NCBI GenBank assembly: GCA_963846495.1
Contig: CAWJWP010000035.1
Location: 372,212 to 436,211, forward strand
Direction of reading: 5' to 3'
DNA: 64,000 nucleotides
DNA from: Thermoanaerobaculia bacterium
GTDB taxonomy: Bacteria > Acidobacteriota > Thermoanaerobaculia > Multivoradales > JAIOJS01
The notes below the pieces were generated by a model. It was not told the DNA's origin. It was given only the letters and a program-made list of their open reading frames with translations, and made no database searches. Both the position numbers and the translations under genes were made by a program. This document shows positions 50,020-58,831 of this stretch, piece after piece (the stretch's first letter is position 1; each line of letters opens with the position of its first letter).

Positions 50020-50778
50020 ATGGCCGAGATGGACCTCGAGCGCCTCTTCGTCGACAACCTACCGCTCATCGAGCGCATCATCGCGGCGACCTGCCGCCGC
50101 AACCGGTTGACCAAGGAAGAGTCGGAAGACTTCGCCTCGGTGGTCAAGCTCAAGCTGATCGCCGACGACTACGGCGTGCTGCGCACTTGGTGCGGCAAGA
50201 GCACCCTCCCCGGCTACCTGCTGACGGTGATCCAGCGCGCCTACTGCGACCACCGGAATCATCTCTGGGGCAAGTGGCGCCCTTCTGCCGAGGCGCGGCG
50301 GCTCGGTCCGCTGGCGATGAAGCTCGACACGCTGCTCTACCGCGACGGCATGACCCTCGACGAAGCGTGCGCCACGGCGGCTCCCGAGGACCGCGACGAG
50401 ATGCGCCGCCTGGCGCCGATGCTGCCGCCGCGGACCAAGCGGCGCTGGGAGGACGTCGAGCAGCTCGAGCAGCTGCCCGCCGGCGAGGCGTCGCCCGAGG
50501 CGTTGCTGCTCGAGCGCGAGCGCTGCGAGGCGGCGGCGGGCATCGAGCGCGTCCTCGCCGAGGCGCTCGGCACGCTGTCGGCCGAGGACCGCCTGCTGGT
50601 GCAGCTGCGCTTCGAGCGTGGGGTGAAGCTCGCCAGCCTGGCCCGCTCTTACGGCGTCGAAGGCCGGCAGCTCTACCGGCGCTGGGAGCTGCTCGCCAAG
50701 AAGCTGCGCAAGGTGCTCGAAGGCAACGGCTTTGATAAGGCGCGGGTGAAGGTCTTTGTTGGAAACGAGACCTGCTAG
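50020..50778 (+). CDS. Sigma-70 family RNA polymerase sigma factor (ECF-like, with an extended linker)
   Basis: The region-2-like segment is FASVVKLKLIADDYGVLRTW..LPGYLLTVIQRAYCDHRNHLWG. The region-4 HTH is LSAEDRLLVQLRFERGVKLASLARSYGVEGRQLYRRWELLAKKLRKVL. Confidence 0.75.
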   Translation: MAEMDLERLFVDNLPLIERIIAATCRRNRLTKEESEDFASVVKLKLIADDYGVLRTWCGKSTLPGYLLTVIQRAYCDHRNHLWGKWRPSAEARRLGPLAMKLDTLLYRDGMTLDEACATAAPEDRDEMRRLAPMLPPRTKRRWEDVEQLEQLPAGEASPEALLLERERCEAAAGIERVLAEALGTLSAEDRLLVQLRFERGVKLASLARSYGVEGRQLYRRWELLAKKLRKVLEGNGFDKARVKVFVGNETC

Positions 50779-50840
50779 GCTCGAGGTAGGACGCAGAGAG
50801 TCGTGACCGGTCCGTCCTCTACCAAGGGTAGAGCCACACA

Positions 50841-51853
50841 ATGCATCACGTCACGGGCTGCTCGACCCTCGAAGACCTCGCCGCGTTCGCCGAGGGGCGC
50901 CTGCGTGGCGCGGAGCGCGCGCAGGTGATCGACCACTTGGCTGGCTGCGCCGATTGCCGCGAGGTGCTGGCCGAGTCGATGGAGAGACCGACGCCGTTAT
51001 CGAGCGCCCGGAGGATCCCTCGCTAGCAGGCGCCCGAGGAGCAGCTGCGGACGCCGCGGCGCGGCGGCCGCCCCCCTACTCCCGCTGGCTCGCCCGCGCC
51101 GCCAGCCTGGCCGCCGCCGCCCTGGTGGCGATCAGCGCCGTGGTGATGTGGCAGGCGAACGCCGGGCGCACGCCGCCCGACCGCAGCGAGTGGCTAGCCG
51201 CCATGCCGCCGGCGCAGGAGCTGGCGCCTCACGTCTGGGGTGGCGTGGTGATGCGCGGCGAAGGCGACACGGGCGAGCAGAATCGTTGGAGCACCGAGCT
51301 AGGCGCTCTGCTAGTCGACGTCGACGTGGCGCTCGCGGCCGGCGACGCCGAGCGCGCCAGGGACTTCCTGCATCGGATAGCGACCATTTTCGACGACGCG
51401 GGTTGGATGGAGGACCACGTCGAGACGCTGCGGCAGATCGCTGAGATCGACGACGCCGGCGAGATGAAGGCCAAGTTCGCGGCGCAGCTATCCGCGCTCG
51501 AAAGCGACATGCGGGAGCGGTTCGAGACCTTCTTCCTCGACCTCGGCACGTTCTTGAACGAGGCGCAGCTCGCTGCACGCACGGGCCGCGAGGATTACCT
51601 CGACACTCCTCGGGCGCGTCGTTACCTCGAGTGGGTGCTGTCGCAGGGCGACGAGCGGCTGCCCGATGCGCTCCTCACCCGGTTGGAGCTGCGCAGGCGC
51701 GAGGACAGCATGACTTACGACGAGCAACAGCAATCCATCACCGACACGCTCGAACCGGTGCGCGCCGAGCTGCTCGTCCTGCGCGACAGCAACGCTGACC
51801 CGGCCGCCCGCGCCGCCGCTGCCGAGCAGATCCTCCGCGCGCTCACCGGCTGA
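50841..51853 (+). CDS. zf-HC2 anti-sigma-like membrane protein, paralog 1 (frameshifted near 50980)
   Basis: It has the motif HLAGCADCREVL (H-x3-C-x2-C), a TM helix and a C-terminal domain that aligns along its length with 52600..53511. The N-terminal 47 aa are in one frame and the rest is in ORF 50954..51853 (-1 shift). Confidence 0.7.
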
Positions 51854-51866
51854 GCGCGCCACCCGA

Positions 51867-56500: not shown

Positions 56501-56742
56501 TCGCCGCCGGCGTGCCGGCGGTCGTCGGCTCGCTCTGGCGCATCGACGACGACGCCAGCGCGTCGCTGATGACGACCTTCCACCGGCGCCTGCGCGCCGG
56601 CGACGATCCGCAATCGGCGCTGCGGAGGGCGCAGCTGGCGGAGATCCGCAAAGGCGGCGCCGCGGCCGATCCCGGCACGTGGGCGCCATTCCAGTTGATT
56701 GGCGGCGTGCTGCCGTCGGAGACGGGAGGAGGAGCGGGATGA
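53524..56742 (+). CDS. Membrane-anchored TPR-repeat CHAT-domain (caspase-like) protease, with two frameshifts (about 54450 and about 55840)
   Basis: It has an N-terminal TM helix (AVFFAVGTLATACALAAWTLV) and a long TPR-like solenoid. The C-terminal CHAT domain keeps His (HLAGHS) and Cys (LAGCGTA). It reads through ORFs 53524.., 54209.. and 55738.., and is collinear with the paralog at 61210..64000. Confidence 0.75.
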
Positions 56743-57545
56743 GCTTCAAGTTGAACGTCACGTTCCGCGGCCTGCACATGCTGGTGCCGAGCAGGCCCGT
56801 GGACTTCAAGGGCGCCGATCCCGCCGCTCTCCGCATCGACAGCCTTCTCATCATCACGCCGGCGGTGCGCAAGCAGACGATCCGCGTTCGCGACGTCGAG
56901 CCGCCGCAAAAGTTCGAGGTCGATGCGCACGAAGCGTTCGTGCGGGCGGAGGAGCAGAGATCGGAGCCGCTGGACGGCGACTGGCTGACCCTCGGCGGGC
57001 CGGCCCGCAACGGCGTCGAGCTGCGGCCCGCCGCCCGCCGCATCGTCCAGCTCAGCGTCGCGGCCCGTCAGCCCGTCACGCCGGACCCCGCCCTCCTGGT
57101 AGCGCCGCCGGCGACGCCACCTCCCGGTCGGCTGGCGAGCAGCATTCGGTTGTCGAGCGGCTTGGTCTTCGGCGCCGATCCTTCCGAGCTCGCGTTCGGC
57201 TTCGGCGACGCCTACCGCGGCCGGTTCTTCCGCGACGTTCGCGTCGAGATCGAGGTTCCCGCCGACGAGGCTCAACTACGGATGAGCCCTTTCGACGGCG
57301 GCCGCGAGAGGCTGGTGACGCTGCGACCGATTCGACCGCGGCGCTCCGTCGACCTGATGGTGAGCAATCTCTGCAAGAAGGACGTGGCGATCGCTCCCGA
57401 GCCCGACGAGGACTTCGCCGTCTACTACGACCTGCTCGACGGCTACACGGGTCGGCGCTTCGTCCCGGCGCCCATCTTGCCTCCGCCCGAAGAGGTGGCG
57501 GCCCTGGCCGTTCGACCGGGAGGCTGCTTCCCTACCATCGCGTGA
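56739..57545 (+). CDS. Conserved hypothetical protein coupled to CHAT (paralog of 60233..61213)
   Basis: The ATG overlaps the CHAT stop (ATGA) after GGGAGGAGGAG. It shares N-terminal FKLNVTFRGLHMLVPSR, VRVEIEVP and DEDFAVYYDLL..RRFVP with the paralog. Confidence 0.6.
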   Translation: MSFKLNVTFRGLHMLVPSRPVDFKGADPAALRIDSLLIITPAVRKQTIRVRDVEPPQKFEVDAHEAFVRAEEQRSEPLDGDWLTLGGPARNGVELRPAARRIVQLSVAARQPVTPDPALLVAPPATPPPGRLASSIRLSSGLVFGADPSELAFGFGDAYRGRFFRDVRVEIEVPADEAQLRMSPFDGGRERLVTLRPIRPRRSVDLMVSNLCKKDVAIAPEPDEDFAVYYDLLDGYTGRRFVPAPILPPPEEVAALAVRPGGCFPTIA

Positions 57546-58831
57546 GTCCTCGCGGCCGGCACGAGATCGTGAGATCGCCGCGCGTCCCGCTGCTGCTGTC
57601 GCTGCGCGATGCGATAACCCCTGCGTGGGGCGAGGAGTGGCGACGCTTCCGGGAACGAGCCGCCGACCGGCTCGAGGGCGCGCGCGAGCGCGTGGCTACG
57701 ACGCTGGGTCTCGAGCTCGTACCGCTGCTGGCGGCCGGGGGCCTCGCGGGACGGATCCCGGCCGAGCAGCTGGGCGAGATCACCCGCGGTGCGCTCGGCC
57801 CAGAATTGACTCGCGTCGCATGGGACCATCCCGTCGCTGCGCAGGCGATGGCGTACGGCGACGCGAGCATCGGCCCGGGCACGCCGGCGTCGGTCGTCAC
57901 CACGACATGGGGCGACGGAGCTCACGTGGCGATCCTCGATTCCGGCATCGACCGTCGGCACCCTTTCCTCGCCGTCAGCGCTGCGGTGTCGACCTGTCCG
58001 GAGCGGTCCTCGCGTGCGGGGCGGCACGGGACGCACTGCGCCGGCATCGTCGCCTCGCGGAGCGACGAACGGCCGGGAGTGGCGCCGGGCGTGCGGCTGT
58101 CGAGCATCAAGGTGGCGCGCGCCAGCGGCACGGTCGACCCCGGATGGTTGGCGAAGGGGATCGACGCGGCCATGGACCTCGGCGCCGACGTCCTCTCGAT
58201 CAGCTGCGGCCTCAATCATCTGCCGGCTTCCGAACGCGGCGGCCATGGATGGTCGTGCCCGCATGGGACCTGCTTGCTATGCCGCGCCGTCGACTGCGCG
58301 ACGGCGTGCGGCGCGATGGTGGTGGCGGCGGCTGGCAACCTCGGGAGCTACGCCCGTGTACGGCGCCGCGGCCACGGCGGGGCTCCGCCGGTCGACGAGC
58401 TGCTCTGCCCCGCCCAGGCGCGCGGTGCGATCGCGGTGGGGGCGCTCGACCTCGGCCCAACGACGCGGCGCTGGCGAGCCTCGAGCAGCGGTCGCACCCC
58501 GTACGGCCGCCGCAAGCCGGAGCTGCTGGCACCGGGAGTCGACGTAACGTCGACGGTCCCGACAACCGACGGCGGCGGCGACCTCAGCGAGCTGGGGCTG
58601 TTCGGCGACGGCACCGGAACCTCCGTCGCGACGGCGATGGTCGCCGGCGCGGTCGCGCTTCTCGTCGCCCGGTGCGCGCGGACCGGTGGCTCGCGCTCGC
58701 CCGACGTCGTCCGCCGTCAGCTTCTCGAGAGCTGCTCGCGCCGCGCTCGCATCGACGGCGCATCGCAGCGCATCCTCGATCTGCCGCGACTGCGCGCCTT
58801 CGCCGCCCCGCCTCTGCCGCTCAGCCCATGA
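57542..58831 (+). CDS. Subtilisin-like S8 serine peptidase (no signal peptide evident)
   Basis: The GTG overlaps the upstream stop (GTGA). The catalytic triad motifs are VAILDSGID (Asp), HGTHCAGIV (His) and GTSVATAMVAG (Ser). Confidence 0.85.
   Translation: MSPRGRHEIVRSPRVPLLLSLRDAITPAWGEEWRRFRERAADRLEGARERVATTLGLELVPLLAAGGLAGRIPAEQLGEITRGALGPELTRVAWDHPVAAQAMAYGDASIGPGTPASVVTTTWGDGAHVAILDSGIDRRHPFLAVSAAVSTCPERSSRAGRHGTHCAGIVASRSDERPGVAPGVRLSSIKVARASGTVDPGWLAKGIDAAMDLGADVLSISCGLNHLPASERGGHGWSCPHGTCLLCRAVDCATACGAMVVAAAGNLGSYARVRRRGHGGAPPVDELLCPAQARGAIAVGALDLGPTTRRWRASSSGRTPYGRRKPELLAPGVDVTSTVPTTDGGGDLSELGLFGDGTGTSVATAMVAGAVALLVARCARTGGSRSPDVVRRQLLESCSRRARIDGASQRILDLPRLRAFAAPPLPLSP

What the first reader, a model, noticed from the sequence alone, without database searches (positions are those of the whole stretch)
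50020..58831. Sigma / zf-HC2 anti-sigma-like / membrane TPR-CHAT / unknown / S8 protease: a candidate protease-gated signalling or conflict cassette
An ECF-like sigma factor is followed by two zf-HC2, single-TM anti-sigma-like paralogs with a shared unknown extracytoplasmic domain.

The second paralog is directly followed (12-nt gap) by three genes:
- a membrane-anchored TPR-CHAT caspase-like protease with an intact His/Cys dyad
- an ATGA-coupled unknown protein
- a GTGA-coupled S8 subtilase without a signal peptide

Canonical ECF release uses site-1/site-2 proteases. Here a caspase-like CHAT protease and a subtilase are hard-wired next to the anti-sigma gene. This suggests a proteolytic cascade that either liberates the sigma factor or acts as an effector arm, as CHAT modules do in prokaryotic conflict systems.

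I do not know of a characterised system with this composition. The CHAT gene needs two frame corrections (about 54450 and about 55840).
Basis: partly seen in the sequence, partly recalled or inferred. Interest (0 to 1): 0.75.

Follow-up and report, generated by a model that had tools for sequence, protein, structure and literature searches.

The report
Split sigma/anti-sigma/CHAT protease signalling module
This is a soil-bacterium (Acidobacteriota) gene cluster in which a sigma factor and its membrane anti-sigma factors sit next to a caspase-like CHAT protease, an unknown partner protein with no recognisable fold relative and a second protease; it is a split-up relative of the DdvS/DdvA system of Myxococcus, not a wholly new kind of system.

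Summary
All six genes lie at the stated coordinates, with the stated couplings and intact catalytic residues.

- Anti-sigma 1 also needs a frame fix.
- A 0.7-kb DUF1501 remnant on the minus strand separates the two anti-sigma genes.
- The frameshifts look like assembly indels, because the nearby isocitrate lyase gene needs about eight.
- A second CHAT–partner–peptidase module lies convergently at 59.5–64 kb.

**What it is.** A characterised relative exists: *M. xanthus* DdvS/DdvA. DdvA is a zinc anti-sigma fused to a periplasmic TPR-CHAT, and its gene is followed by an unknown gene and a C25 peptidase. The CHAT family profile here hits DdvA (PDB 8ROT) at E = 1.4e-30.

**Evidence from related Acidobacteriota loci:**
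- The same CHAT family is fused to a zf-HC2 anti-sigma in 11 loci and split from it in about 14.
- A homologous sigma lies nearby in 19 of 69 loci.
- The unknown protein family follows CHAT in at least 40–53 of 84 loci. It has invariant His and Cys, a confident AF2 model, and no PDB fold match.
- The third gene is a peptidase of varying class: S8, C39-like, M10, M12-like.
- The full five-gene order recurs only in a small clade.

**Most likely mechanism.** The extracytoplasmic CHAT acts as site-1 protease on the anti-sigma. This is inferred, not shown.

**Verdict:** new variant of a known kind, of moderate interest.

The parts
49961..49989 (+). Possible housekeeping-type promoter of the sigma gene (TTCGCA-N17-TAGGAT)
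   Evidence: Read from the sequence. A TAnnAT-like element followed by C-rich bases recurs upstream of many of the 21 sigma homologues examined by eye. No typical ECF AAC...CGT motif was noticed by eye; no formal motif search was run. Weak evidence.
50020..50778 (+). [quoted passage not shown]
   Evidence: TIGR02937 gives E=7.7e-10 at 38.6 bits, below the 42.9 cutoff, covering residues 6-232. Pfam Sigma70_r4 gives E=0.0027. The family profile A7 hits sigma-4 of FliA, AlgU and SigL in the PDB (E 2e-5 to 2e-3) but not DdvS. Homologues at 34-66% identity lie next to zf-HC2 genes in 19 other loci.
50841..51853 (+). Anti-sigma 1: zf-HC2 zinc anti-sigma domain, one TM segment and a helical periplasmic domain. 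Needs one frame change at about 50990
   Evidence: zf-HC2 E=1.3e-7. The homology continues in a second frame. It is 48% identical to anti-sigma 2. The position is syntenic with the sigma-anti-sigma pair of L089.
52588..53511 (+). Anti-sigma 2. Its layout is a zf-HC2 domain (C11, H36-x3-C40-x2-C43), a disordered linker, a TM segment (about residues 83-108), a loop carrying the invariant R138-G139, and an all-helical periplasmic domain
   Evidence: zf-HC2 E=1.9e-4. The family has at least 53 members. The AF2 model has pLDDT 84, above 94 in the periplasmic domain, and no PDB fold match at E<=1e-3. R and G are invariant in 36 sequences. The database gene call begins at the ATG at 52600 (P0131).
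53524..56742 (+). Membrane-anchored, extracytoplasmic TPR-CHAT caspase-like protease, about 1072 aa after two frame corrections (about 54455-54470 and about 55840-55849)
   Evidence: CHAT E=1e-61. Collinear tblastn to intact homologues of 1050-1068 aa at 44-53% identity. His and Cys are invariant. Family profile A1 hits DdvA 8rot_B at E=1.4e-30. Family N-termini are anchors, lipoboxes or fused ZAS+TM.
56739..57545 (+). CHAT-associated partner protein ('unk'), 268 aa, all-beta, with no signal peptide. His64, Pro243 and Cys263 are invariant
   Evidence: No Pfam, NCBIfam or PADLOC hit. An exhaustive HMMER search found only 28 cluster representatives among 1.84 billion. AF2 gives pLDDT 90.4 and pTM 0.90. 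Foldseek finds nothing at E<=1e-3 in PDB or BFVD. A family member follows CHAT in 40 of 84 loci, or 53 of 84 with a broader profile.
57542..58831 (+). Subtilase (peptidase S8) with an N-terminal pro-like region of about 120 aa and no signal peptide
   Evidence: Peptidase_S8 E=4.6e-37. The triad motifs AILDSGID, HGTHCAG and GTSVATA are present. Close homologues at 50-55% identity follow CHAT-unk in L001, L004, L064 and L084-L086 and also lack signal peptides.
61210..63999 (-). Second TPR-CHAT paralog (CHAT2), at least 929 aa. Its N-terminus lies beyond the window end
   Evidence: CHAT E=3.3e-55. It is 30% identical to CHAT1 over residues 131-1067 (E=3e-49). The frame stays open to the window end and the dyad motifs are intact.
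60233..61213 (-). Second member of the partner ('unk') family, 326 aa, directly after CHAT2
   Evidence: hhalign against family A4 gives probability 88% and E=3.1e-6 over 228 columns. The N-terminal GLxAFVP motif and the C-terminal DxxFAxFYxL motif both align.
59478..60215 (-). Secreted papain-fold (C39_2-like) cysteine peptidase candidate, 245 aa, third gene of the second module
   Evidence: Signal-peptide-like N-terminus. Motifs CWAAS and GHMM are present. BLASTP gives E=1e-9 to the third gene of L028. That gene is 68% identical to the third gene of L029, which hits Pfam Peptidase_C39_2 (E=2e-8). No direct Pfam hit.

Best explanation
**What it is.** The region encodes an envelope signal-transduction module of the DdvS/DdvA type, in a split form. 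A divergent ECF-like sigma factor is held by a single-pass zinc (zf-HC2) anti-sigma factor. The TPR-CHAT caspase-like protease is a separate protein, anchored in the membrane with its TPR-CHAT part outside the cytoplasm. In DdvA that same part is the periplasmic domain of the anti-sigma itself.

**Most likely mechanism (inferred, not shown).**
1. An extracytoplasmic signal is sensed by the TPR region and/or the helical periplasmic domain of the anti-sigma. This activates CHAT.
2. CHAT cuts the exposed juxtamembrane loop of the anti-sigma, which carries the conserved WGG..RG motif about 30 residues after the TM helix. CHAT thus acts as site-1 protease.
3. A site-2 protease and cytoplasmic proteases then free the sigma factor.

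**The two genes after CHAT.** They belong to a wider conserved triad: TPR-CHAT, a partner protein with no recognisable fold relative and invariant His/Cys, and a peptidase of interchangeable class (S8 here). Their role is not known. My best guess is a second protease stage controlled by CHAT, with the partner acting as adaptor, inhibitor or substrate.

**How the window came to look this way.** Two paralogous loci seem to have been joined. Sigma-AS1 is the syntenic native pair. AS2-CHAT-unk-S8 is a cassette that has its own sigma in the closest relative with upstream sequence, L001 (in L084 the contig is cut inside the anti-sigma gene), but not here. The frameshifts are most likely assembly errors.
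For: **Shown.**
- Domain content, topology and catalytic residues.
- Profile-level homology of the CHAT family to DdvA, PDB 8ROT (E=1.4e-30).
- Fusions of zf-HC2-TM with this same TPR-CHAT family in 11 loci and in P0019, P0020 and P0022.
- The same sigma family within 4 kb of CHAT in 19 of 69 loci, always with a zf-HC2 anti-sigma.
- The same five-gene order in L001. In L084 the part held is the same (anti-sigma, CHAT, unk, S8, with the contig cut inside the anti-sigma gene), and the larger contig (no DNA held) has a truncated 82-aa ORF of unidentified family upstream of its anti-sigma.
- Three of four anti-sigma family members looked up have a CHAT-partner-third-gene cluster adjacent.
- The partner family follows CHAT in 40-53 of 84 loci.
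- The third gene is S8, C39_2, M10, M12-like or DUF6345.
- R-G is invariant in a lower-confidence loop after the TM helix. That loop aligns with the juxtamembrane RLTGG..VLR[SG] motif of the fused proteins.

**From the literature.**
- DdvA has a periplasmic TPR-CHAT whose active site faces the linker 37-48 residues after the TM helix. CHAT self-cleavage followed by RseP is the proposed release route. The ddvS-ddvA operon continues with an unknown gene and a C25 peptidase (PMC11506125).
- A CHAT protease can activate a second protease, which in turn cleaves a sigma factor (bioRxiv 10.1101/2023.06.23.546230).

**Frameshifts as artefacts.** The isocitrate lyase gene needs about eight frame changes in the window but is an intact 788-aa gene in the syntenic L089.
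Against: - No cleavage has been shown, either here or for DdvA itself. Dyad mutants of DdvA had no phenotype without the unknown signal.
- Most CHAT-partner loci have no sigma nearby: 47 of 63 loci with both flanks.
- L089 has the sigma/anti-sigma pair without any CHAT within 9 kb. The link is therefore facultative.
- The partner protein and the S8 lack signal peptides, whereas TPR-CHAT is extracytoplasmic. A direct three-protein cascade therefore has a topology problem.
- The sigma is not related to DdvS beyond the general family. It also falls below curated sigma thresholds.
- In this window AS2-CHAT-unk-S8 has lost its own sigma and is separated from sigma-AS1 by a gene remnant. Its expression and its pairing with the remaining sigma are uncertain.
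Confidence: 0.55

Rival explanations
1. The CHAT, partner and S8 genes are only outputs (regulon members) of the sigma factor. They would form a secreted or envelope proteolytic system for nutrient acquisition, cell-surface remodelling or competition, and would not act on the anti-sigma at all.
For: - The triad occurs without any sigma in most loci.
- The sigma/anti-sigma pair occurs without CHAT in L089.
- Third-gene peptidases are varied, and several carry signal peptides, as expected for secreted enzymes.
- The neighbourhood is rich in envelope and peptidase genes such as M16, trypsin-like and BNR proteins.
Against: - Physical fusion of the zf-HC2 anti-sigma domain to this same TPR-CHAT family in 11 loci and three database proteins argues for direct coupling.
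- There is the DdvA precedent (PMC11506125).
- Split anti-sigmas and fused proteins share a conserved juxtamembrane motif.
Confidence: 0.22
2. It is an anti-phage or other conflict system. A sensor CHAT protease would trigger a second protease and an effector (the partner protein) in an abortive-infection-like cascade, as in craspase, SAVED-CHAT/PCaspase or gasdermin-protease systems.
For: - DdvS/DdvA controls a CBASS/CRISPR island and gives phage resistance.
- CHAT-to-second-protease cascades exist in type III-B systems.
- The S8 hits the PADLOC 'subtilase' model (E=1.8e-27), and CHAT hits BovA weakly.
- A small beta-rich protein next to proteases is reminiscent of gasdermin loci (my own recollection, not tested beyond the fold search).
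Against: - No CRISPR, CBASS or other defence genes were seen in the large ORFs of the 64-kb window that were scanned. Smaller ORFs and CRISPR arrays were not searched.
- No PADLOC hit for the sigma, anti-sigma or partner proteins.
- The partner model has no fold match to any PDB entry; I would expect solved bacterial gasdermins to be in that library, but I did not check.
- TPR-CHAT is extracytoplasmic.
- Synteny with core metabolic genes is conserved in L089.
Confidence: 0.1
3. The locus is a decaying or chimeric remnant. The frameshifted CHAT and AS1, a lost second sigma and a truncated DUF1501 would mean the cassette is non-functional in this organism, or the arrangement is a misassembly.
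For: - Three frameshifts in the cassette.
- A DUF1501 fragment between the anti-sigma genes and a 53-59 bp DUF1501 tail after S8.
- AS2 has no sigma of its own, unlike in L001.
Against: - The isocitrate lyase gene upstream has about eight frame changes with coding periodicity preserved, which points to assembly indels rather than selective decay.
- The first CHAT shift coincides with C4/G5 homopolymer runs.
- There are no in-frame stops within the corrected reading frames, and all catalytic and zinc-binding residues are retained.
Confidence: 0.12

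Closest known systems
DdvS/DdvA of Myxococcus xanthus (ECF sigma plus ZAS-TM-TPR-CHAT anti-sigma; PDB 8ROT/8RW5; PMC6061681, PMC11506125)
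   Same: - A sigma factor lies next to a zinc (C-H-C-C) single-pass anti-sigma.
- The TPR-CHAT is extracytoplasmic, with a His-Cys dyad.
- The CHAT module is the closest solved relative of this family (profile E=1.4e-30).
- The operon continues with an unknown gene and then a peptidase.
- The proposed logic is the same: CHAT acts as site-1 protease, followed by RseP.
- Fully fused DdvA-like proteins of this same family exist in 11 Acidobacteriota loci.
   Different: - Here the anti-sigma and the TPR-CHAT are separate proteins. The anti-sigma has its own helical periplasmic domain of about 165 aa with no known relative.
- The sigma is not DdvS-like and carries a conserved insert.
- The third gene is S8 rather than C25.
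- No CBASS or CRISPR island is nearby.
- The phylum is Acidobacteriota. The paper reports DdvA-like proteins only in Myxococcota and one Comamonas.
- Similarity to DdvA is detectable only with a profile, not with the single sequence.
Craspase: type III-E Cas7-11 with the Csx29 TPR-CHAT, which cleaves Csx30, the binding partner of the ECF-like CASP-sigma (PMC10028731)
   Same: A TPR-CHAT protease and the sigma-binding protein it is thought to cut are separate polypeptides. Proteolysis is coupled to a sigma factor.
   Different: - Craspase is cytoplasmic and RNA-guided, and needs Cas7-11.
- No cas genes are present here.
- The anti-sigma here is a classical membrane zf-HC2 protein, not Csx30.
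ECF54 neighbourhood (Actinobacteria), as summarised in PMC8999054 from Huang 2015 and Casas-Pastor 2021
   Same: A sigma group whose conserved neighbours include CHAT-domain and subtilase proteins. Proteolytic control of the sigma has been proposed for it.
   Different: - ECF54 lacks an anti-sigma and is actinobacterial. Its neighbours also include a carboxypeptidase.
- Here a zf-HC2 anti-sigma is present.
- Membership of the sigma in ECF54 could not be tested, because no group HMMs were available.
SAVED-CHAT / PCaspase cascade of Haliangium ochraceum (bioRxiv 10.1101/2023.06.23.546230)
   Same: A CHAT protease is encoded with a second protease, a small regulatory protein and a sigma factor. 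CHAT activates the second protease, which cleaves the sigma and its inhibitor.
   Different: - That system is cytoplasmic, triggered by cA3 and linked to CRISPR.
- Its second protease is a caspase, not an S8 or C39-like peptidase.
- It has no membrane anti-sigma.
Canonical regulated intramembrane proteolysis of anti-sigma factors (DegS/RseP-RseA-sigmaE; Prc/RseP in cell-surface signalling)
   Same: A single-pass anti-sigma whose periplasmic part must be removed before the site-2 protease can act.
   Different: The candidate site-1 protease is a dedicated, co-encoded caspase-like CHAT rather than a general PDZ or tail-specific serine protease.

Membership tests
DdvA-type TPR-CHAT anti-sigma system | N-terminal zinc-binding anti-sigma domain (C-H-C-C three-helix bundle) | tested here: met
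   zf-HC2 hits for AS1 and AS2. C11 and H36-x3-C40-x2-C43 are present. AF2 predicts helices 10-56. A weak Foldseek similarity to the ChrR anti-sigma was seen.
DdvA-type TPR-CHAT anti-sigma system | Anti-sigma domain, TM helix and periplasmic TPR-CHAT in one polypeptide | tested here: not met
   In the window they are two genes separated by 12 nt. The fused form does exist in 11 related loci and in P0019, P0020 and P0022.
DdvA-type TPR-CHAT anti-sigma system | CHAT module homologous to DdvA, with a His-Cys dyad | tested here: met
   Profile A1 against 8rot_B gives E=1.4e-30. H920 and C972 are invariant or nearly so. The single sequence alone finds nothing at E<=0.01.
DdvA-type TPR-CHAT anti-sigma system | Cognate sigma is DdvS-like | tested here: not met
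   The sigma family profile A7 does not retrieve the DdvS chain at E<=1, although it does retrieve other sigma-4 domains.
DdvA-type TPR-CHAT anti-sigma system | Controls an adjacent CBASS/CRISPR defence island | tested here: not met
   No defence genes were found among the large ORFs of the 64-kb window that were scanned. The regulon itself is unknown.
DdvA-type TPR-CHAT anti-sigma system | Downstream unknown gene homologous to the one after ddvA | not testable with these tools
   The M. xanthus sequence could not be fetched. Only the positional analogy is known.
ECF (group 4) sigma factors | [quoted passage not shown] | tested here: inconclusive
   TIGR02937 scores 38.6 bits against a cutoff of 42.9. 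Pfam region 4 scores 17.6 against 24.1, and no region 2 hit was found. A conserved insert of about 70 aa lies between the regions. The best PDB hits include the group-3 sigma FliA.
ECF54-type neighbourhood | No anti-sigma; CHAT, subtilase and carboxypeptidase neighbours; Actinobacteria | tested here: not met
   An anti-sigma is present, no carboxypeptidase was seen, and relatives are Acidobacteriota. Sigma group membership could not be tested because no group HMMs were available.
Craspase (type III-E) | Association with Cas7-11 and a CRISPR array | tested here: not met
   No cas genes were found among the ORFs scanned. No dedicated CRISPR-array search was run.
Peptidase S8 (subtilases) | Asp-His-Ser triad in the S8 fold | tested here: met
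   Pfam E=4.6e-37. The motifs AILDSGID, HGTHCAG and GTSVATA are present.
Bacterial gasdermin-protease systems | The small neighbour of the proteases has the gasdermin fold | tested here: not met
   The confident AF2 model (pLDDT 90) has no PDB match at E<=1e-3, and the best TM-score is about 0.1. There was no PADLOC hit.

The most novel reading that the evidence does not exclude
The conserved triad would be a previously undescribed, widespread extracytoplasmic protease-sensor module of Acidobacteriota and possibly Myxococcota. It consists of a membrane- or lipid-anchored TPR-CHAT, a partner protein with no detectable fold relative (invariant His64 and Cys263), and a peptidase of interchangeable class. 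It could be plugged into transcription by fusing or pairing it with a zinc anti-sigma factor. Under this reading the split loci are natural trans versions of DdvA, and the partner protein is an essential cofactor or substrate of unknown biochemistry.
Probability: 0.3. Interest if true: 0.75.

Novelty: new variant of a known kind. Interest (0 to 1): 0.55.

Why it matters
**A cleaner test of the DdvA model.** The DdvA model has a caspase-like CHAT domain acting as the site-1 protease of its own anti-sigma factor. It has not been proven, because the signal is unknown and protease and substrate are one protein. Split versions give a natural system in which protease and substrate are separate polypeptides. 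Trans-cleavage, site mapping and specificity can then be tested directly in vitro.

**Wider distribution.** The survey extends DdvA-like fused anti-sigmas beyond Myxococcota into Acidobacteriota.

**A new partner family.** The survey also brings out an unannotated protein family that accompanies these CHAT proteases, followed by a peptidase of varying class:
- It has no Pfam model.
- Its AF2 model is confident but has no relative in the PDB.
- His and Cys are invariant.

That pattern hints at a modular proteolytic signalling device. It may also explain the two uncharacterised genes that follow ddvA.

**Annotation.** The sigma family escapes Pfam thresholds and is left unnamed in the gene calls seen here.

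Tried and rejected
Smaller alignments worked.
2. **Metagenome scan with the partner family.** It returned one short contig and nothing usable.
3. **Structure prediction with locus-derived anti-sigma sequences.** I repeated it with database homologues.
4. **Fold searches.** The partner model against PDB and BFVD, and the anti-sigma model against PDB, gave no match at E<=1e-3.
5. **BLASTP of the anti-sigma periplasmic domain against the TPR region of CHAT.** No meaningful similarity. I dropped the idea that the split anti-sigma carried off part of the TPR array.
6. **Search for an ECF-type autoregulated promoter upstream of the sigma homologues.** By eye, only a housekeeping-like -10 element recurs. 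No regulon prediction was possible.
7. **Single-sequence search of the CHAT domain against the PDB.** Nothing found.
8. **Huang et al. 2015 on ECF54.** Not held in the library. The supplements of the ECF reclassification paper are not held either.
9. **Gasdermin idea for the partner protein.** Rejected on fold and PADLOC evidence.
10. **Pseudogene reading of the frameshifts.** Judged unlikely once isocitrate lyase was found to need about eight frame changes.

Full report
**1. Checking the observation**

The window is about 70% G+C, so raw ORF lists are crowded with spurious frames. A GC3 frame plot, together with Pfam and NCBIfam, gives the following plus-strand map.

| Gene | Coordinates | Main evidence |
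|---|---|---|
| Sigma-like | 50020-50778 | TIGR02937 sigma70-ECF, E=7.7e-10, 38.6 bits (cutoff 42.9), aligned over residues 6-232; Pfam shows only a weak region 4 |
| Anti-sigma 1 (AS1) | 50841-51853 | zf-HC2, E=1.3e-7 |
| Anti-sigma 2 (AS2) | 52588-53511 | zf-HC2, E=1.9e-4 |
| TPR-CHAT | 53524-56742 | CHAT, E=1e-61 |
| Unknown ('unk') | 56739-57545 | no hit in Pfam, NCBIfam or PADLOC |
| Subtilase | 57542-58831 | Peptidase_S8, E=4.6e-37 |

- AS1 and AS2 are true paralogs, 48% identical (E=1e-91). Each has one TM segment.
- The CHAT dyad is intact (HLAGHS and LAGCGT; His and Cys are invariant or nearly so in the family).
- The S8 triad motifs are intact.
- The S8 and its close homologues have no signal peptide.

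**2. The frameshifts**

tblastn with intact homologues of 1050-1068 aa is collinear across three frames of the CHAT gene. The switches fall between 54435 and 54479 and at about 55849. The first coincides with C4/G5 homopolymer runs.

These shifts are not peculiar to the cassette. The isocitrate lyase gene at 45.5-47.9 kb needs about eight frame changes, all in the same direction, while keeping strong coding periodicity. The syntenic relative L089 has an intact 788-aa isocitrate lyase.

I therefore read the shifts as indel errors in a long assembled contig. The database holds AS2 on a 499,803-bp contig. I do not read them as pseudogenisation.

**3.

- The 0.7 kb between AS1 and AS2 (51867-52590, minus strand) is the C-terminal half of a DUF1501 gene. 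It is 83% identical in DNA to the intact DUF1501 that follows the sigma/anti-sigma pair in L089.
- A 53-59 bp copy of the DUF1501 3' end also sits right after the S8 stop codon. This matches the intact convergent DUF1501 after S8 in L001.
- L089 shares the window's upstream synteny: M16 peptidase, isocitrate lyase, methyltransferase, sigma, anti-sigma, at 69-88% DNA identity. It has no CHAT gene within 9 kb.
- The sequence just upstream of AS2 resembles the sigma-AS1 intergenic region (compared by eye).
- My reading is that sigma-AS1 is the native syntenic pair. AS2-CHAT-unk-S8 is a second, L001-type cassette that has lost its own sigma and is now joined to the first locus through DUF1501.
- Beyond 58.9 kb the G+C content drops to 63-67%. 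A second convergent module follows there. CHAT2 (61210 to the window end) is 30% identical to CHAT1 and has an intact dyad. It is followed by a 326-aa member of the 'unk' family (hhalign 88%, E=3e-6). Last comes a 245-aa secreted C39_2-like cysteine peptidase candidate.

**4. Relatives elsewhere**

*CHAT.* The frame-corrected CHAT protein has full-length homologues at 29-53% identity. One of them, P0022, carries zf-HC2 and CHAT in a single protein.

*The closest contigs.* The closest contig, L001, repeats the order sigma (66% identical), anti-sigma (53%), CHAT (53%), unk (38%) and S8 (55%). So does the part of the P0004 contig L084 that is held, which is cut inside the anti-sigma gene; the larger contig returned with it (no DNA held) has a truncated 82-aa ORF of unidentified family upstream of its anti-sigma.

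*Genome scan.* A scan of GTDB genomes returned 80 loci, almost all from Acidobacteriota: Thermoanaerobaculia, Vicinamibacteria, Blastocatellia and Holophagae. Profile searches over 87 loci gave these counts:
- A homologous sigma lies within 4 kb of CHAT in 19 of 69 loci with enough flank. It is on the same strand in 13 and divergent in 6. A zf-HC2 anti-sigma is present in every case.
- A member of the 'unk' family lies immediately downstream of CHAT in 40 of 84 loci. A broader profile raises this to 53 of 84. That profile is partly circular, because it was built from the first 40.
- An S8 gene lies within 4 kb downstream in 18 of 77 loci.

*Fused versus split.* In 11 loci the zf-HC2 domain, the TM helix and the TPR-CHAT form one ORF of about 1100-1170 aa, which is the DdvA architecture. 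In about 14 loci the anti-sigma is separate.

*Reverse look-ups.*
- From the 'unk' family: an exhaustive HMMER search found only 28 representative clusters among 1.84 billion. Every contig with sequence downstream shows unk followed by S8; CHAT is identified upstream in L084, L085 and L086, and is cut off at the contig end and unidentified in the fourth.
- From the anti-sigma family (at least 53 members): three of four look-ups found CHAT-unk-third gene next to sigma/anti-sigma.

*The third gene.* It varies among S8, Peptidase_C39_2, M10, M12-like and DUF6345.

**5. The individual proteins**

*TPR-CHAT.* Family N-termini are hydrophobic anchors, lipoprotein-like signals, or a fused ZAS plus TM helix. 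The TPR-CHAT part is therefore extracytoplasmic, as in DdvA.

*Anti-sigma.* The AF2 model (pLDDT 84) shows these elements in order:
- a three-helix zinc domain;
- a disordered linker;
- the TM helix;
- a lower-confidence loop carrying the invariant Arg-Gly of the WGG..RG motif;
- a very confident all-helical periplasmic domain, with no PDB relative.

The loop aligns with the RLTGG..VLR[SG] juxtamembrane motif of the fused proteins. It lies about 30 residues after the TM helix. In DdvA the linker segment facing the CHAT dyad lies 37-48 residues after the TM helix.

*'Unk'.*
- It is predicted with high confidence (pLDDT 90.4, pTM 0.90) as an all-beta protein.
- It has no fold match in PDB or BFVD.
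- Across 66 family members His64, Pro243 and Cys263 are invariant.
- The N-terminal MxFxLxLxFxGLCAFVP motif starts at residue 1-3 in most members, so there is no signal peptide.

[quoted passage not shown] Its profile hits only sigma-4 domains in the PDB and not DdvS. The gene calls in the related contigs carry no Pfam domain for it.

**6. Mechanism**

*What is shown.*
- The gene content, topology signals and catalytic residues.
- Conserved adjacency.
- Fusion of the anti-sigma to this CHAT family.
- Remote homology to DdvA (profile E=1.4e-30 against 8rot_B).

*What is inferred.* The extracytoplasmic CHAT acts as a dedicated site-1 protease on the juxtamembrane loop of the anti-sigma. A site-2 protease and cytoplasmic proteolysis then release the sigma. 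This is the model proposed, but not yet proven, for DdvA.

*The 'unk' and peptidase genes.* Their role is open. A second protease stage under CHAT control has a precedent in SAVED-CHAT/PCaspase. However, 'unk' and this S8 lack signal peptides, which is a topological difficulty.

*Limits on the link.* Most triads have no sigma nearby, and L089 has sigma/anti-sigma without CHAT. The sigma link is therefore an optional output, not the core of the module.

**7. Comparison with known systems, and novelty**

- The closest characterised system is DdvS/DdvA, whose operon continues with an unknown gene and a C25 peptidase. The window fails the defining 'one polypeptide' feature. It also fails the DdvS-like sigma test and the defence-island test. 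I therefore file it as working like DdvA rather than as a member.
- ECF54 is already noted for CHAT and subtilase neighbours, but it lacks an anti-sigma and is actinobacterial.
- Craspase shares the split protease/substrate logic, but it is cytoplasmic and Cas-dependent.
- The literature held here reports DdvA-like anti-sigmas only in Myxococcota and one Comamonas. I found no description of the split form or of the 'unk' family.
- Scans of the large ORFs across the window show ordinary chromosomal genes and no recognised defence system. This weakens the conflict-system reading.

**8. Verdict**

This is a new variant of a known kind: a split DdvS/DdvA-like module embedded in a broader CHAT-partner-peptidase triad.

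Interest is 0.55. A specialist would value three things: the natural trans arrangement for testing CHAT-mediated anti-sigma cleavage, the partner family with no detectable fold relative, and the extension to Acidobacteriota. The basic concept is already published, and no step of the mechanism is shown here.

Noticed in passing
window 45500-47905 (+): The isocitrate lyase gene needs about eight frame changes, all in the same direction, yet keeps strong GC3 periodicity. The syntenic relative L089 has an intact 788-aa ICL. This points to local assembly indel errors across roughly 45-56 kb.
   Followed up: partly
window 51867-52590 (-) and 58817-58875: The C-terminal half of a DUF1501 gene sits between the two anti-sigma genes. 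It has internal frame changes and is 83% identical in DNA to L089. A 53-59 bp copy of the same 3' end follows the S8 stop codon. This suggests that two paralogous sigma/anti-sigma loci were joined by deletion or recombination, or that the contig is misassembled.
   Followed up: partly
window 59478-63999 (-): A second, convergent module lies in a region of lower G+C (63-67%). It comprises CHAT2 (at least 929 aa, running off the window), a 326-aa distant member of the partner family, and a 245-aa secreted C39_2-like cysteine peptidase candidate.
   Followed up: partly
L010, L028, L029, L031, L035, L041, L044, L051, L056, L076, L078 (CHAT ORFs): Single ORFs of about 1100-1170 aa (a stop-to-stop frame of 1486 aa in L028) carry zf-HC2, a TM helix and TPR-CHAT, which is the DdvA architecture. 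Most are in Acidobacteriota MAGs (two are labelled Dehalococcoidia and Chloroflexi). The 2024 DdvA paper found such proteins only in Myxococcota and one Comamonas.
   Followed up: partly
window 49961-49989, and upstream regions of sigma homologues in 20 loci: A housekeeping-like -10 element (TAGGAT, TAGAAT or TATCAT followed by C-rich bases) recurs upstream of the sigma genes. I did not notice an ECF-type AAC...CGT motif by eye. The sigma gene may therefore not be autoregulated.
   Followed up: no
L086 12012-13553, and contig 2Hx7Sk51 (JGI 3300071325): In two distant CHAT-unk-S8 loci the next gene encodes an animal-haem-peroxidase-family protein (An_peroxidase).
   Followed up: no
window 50020-50778, and sigma homologues in L001 and L089-L092: This sigma family has a highly conserved insert of about 70 aa and an invariant Cys25. 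It carries no Pfam annotation in the precomputed gene calls, so standard pipelines probably label it hypothetical.
   Followed up: partly
window 36896-39241 (-) and 42375-45416 (+): A Ser/Thr protein kinase fused to TPR repeats and a large two-unit M16 peptidase lie upstream of the cassette. No link to the cassette was examined.
   Followed up: no
L003 8853-9980: In one locus the partner-family gene (375 aa) lies immediately upstream of CHAT rather than downstream. In several others (L026, L030, L033, L040, L043) a weak partner-family hit lies upstream of CHAT on the opposite strand, about 0.4-1 kb from the estimated CHAT start.
   Followed up: no
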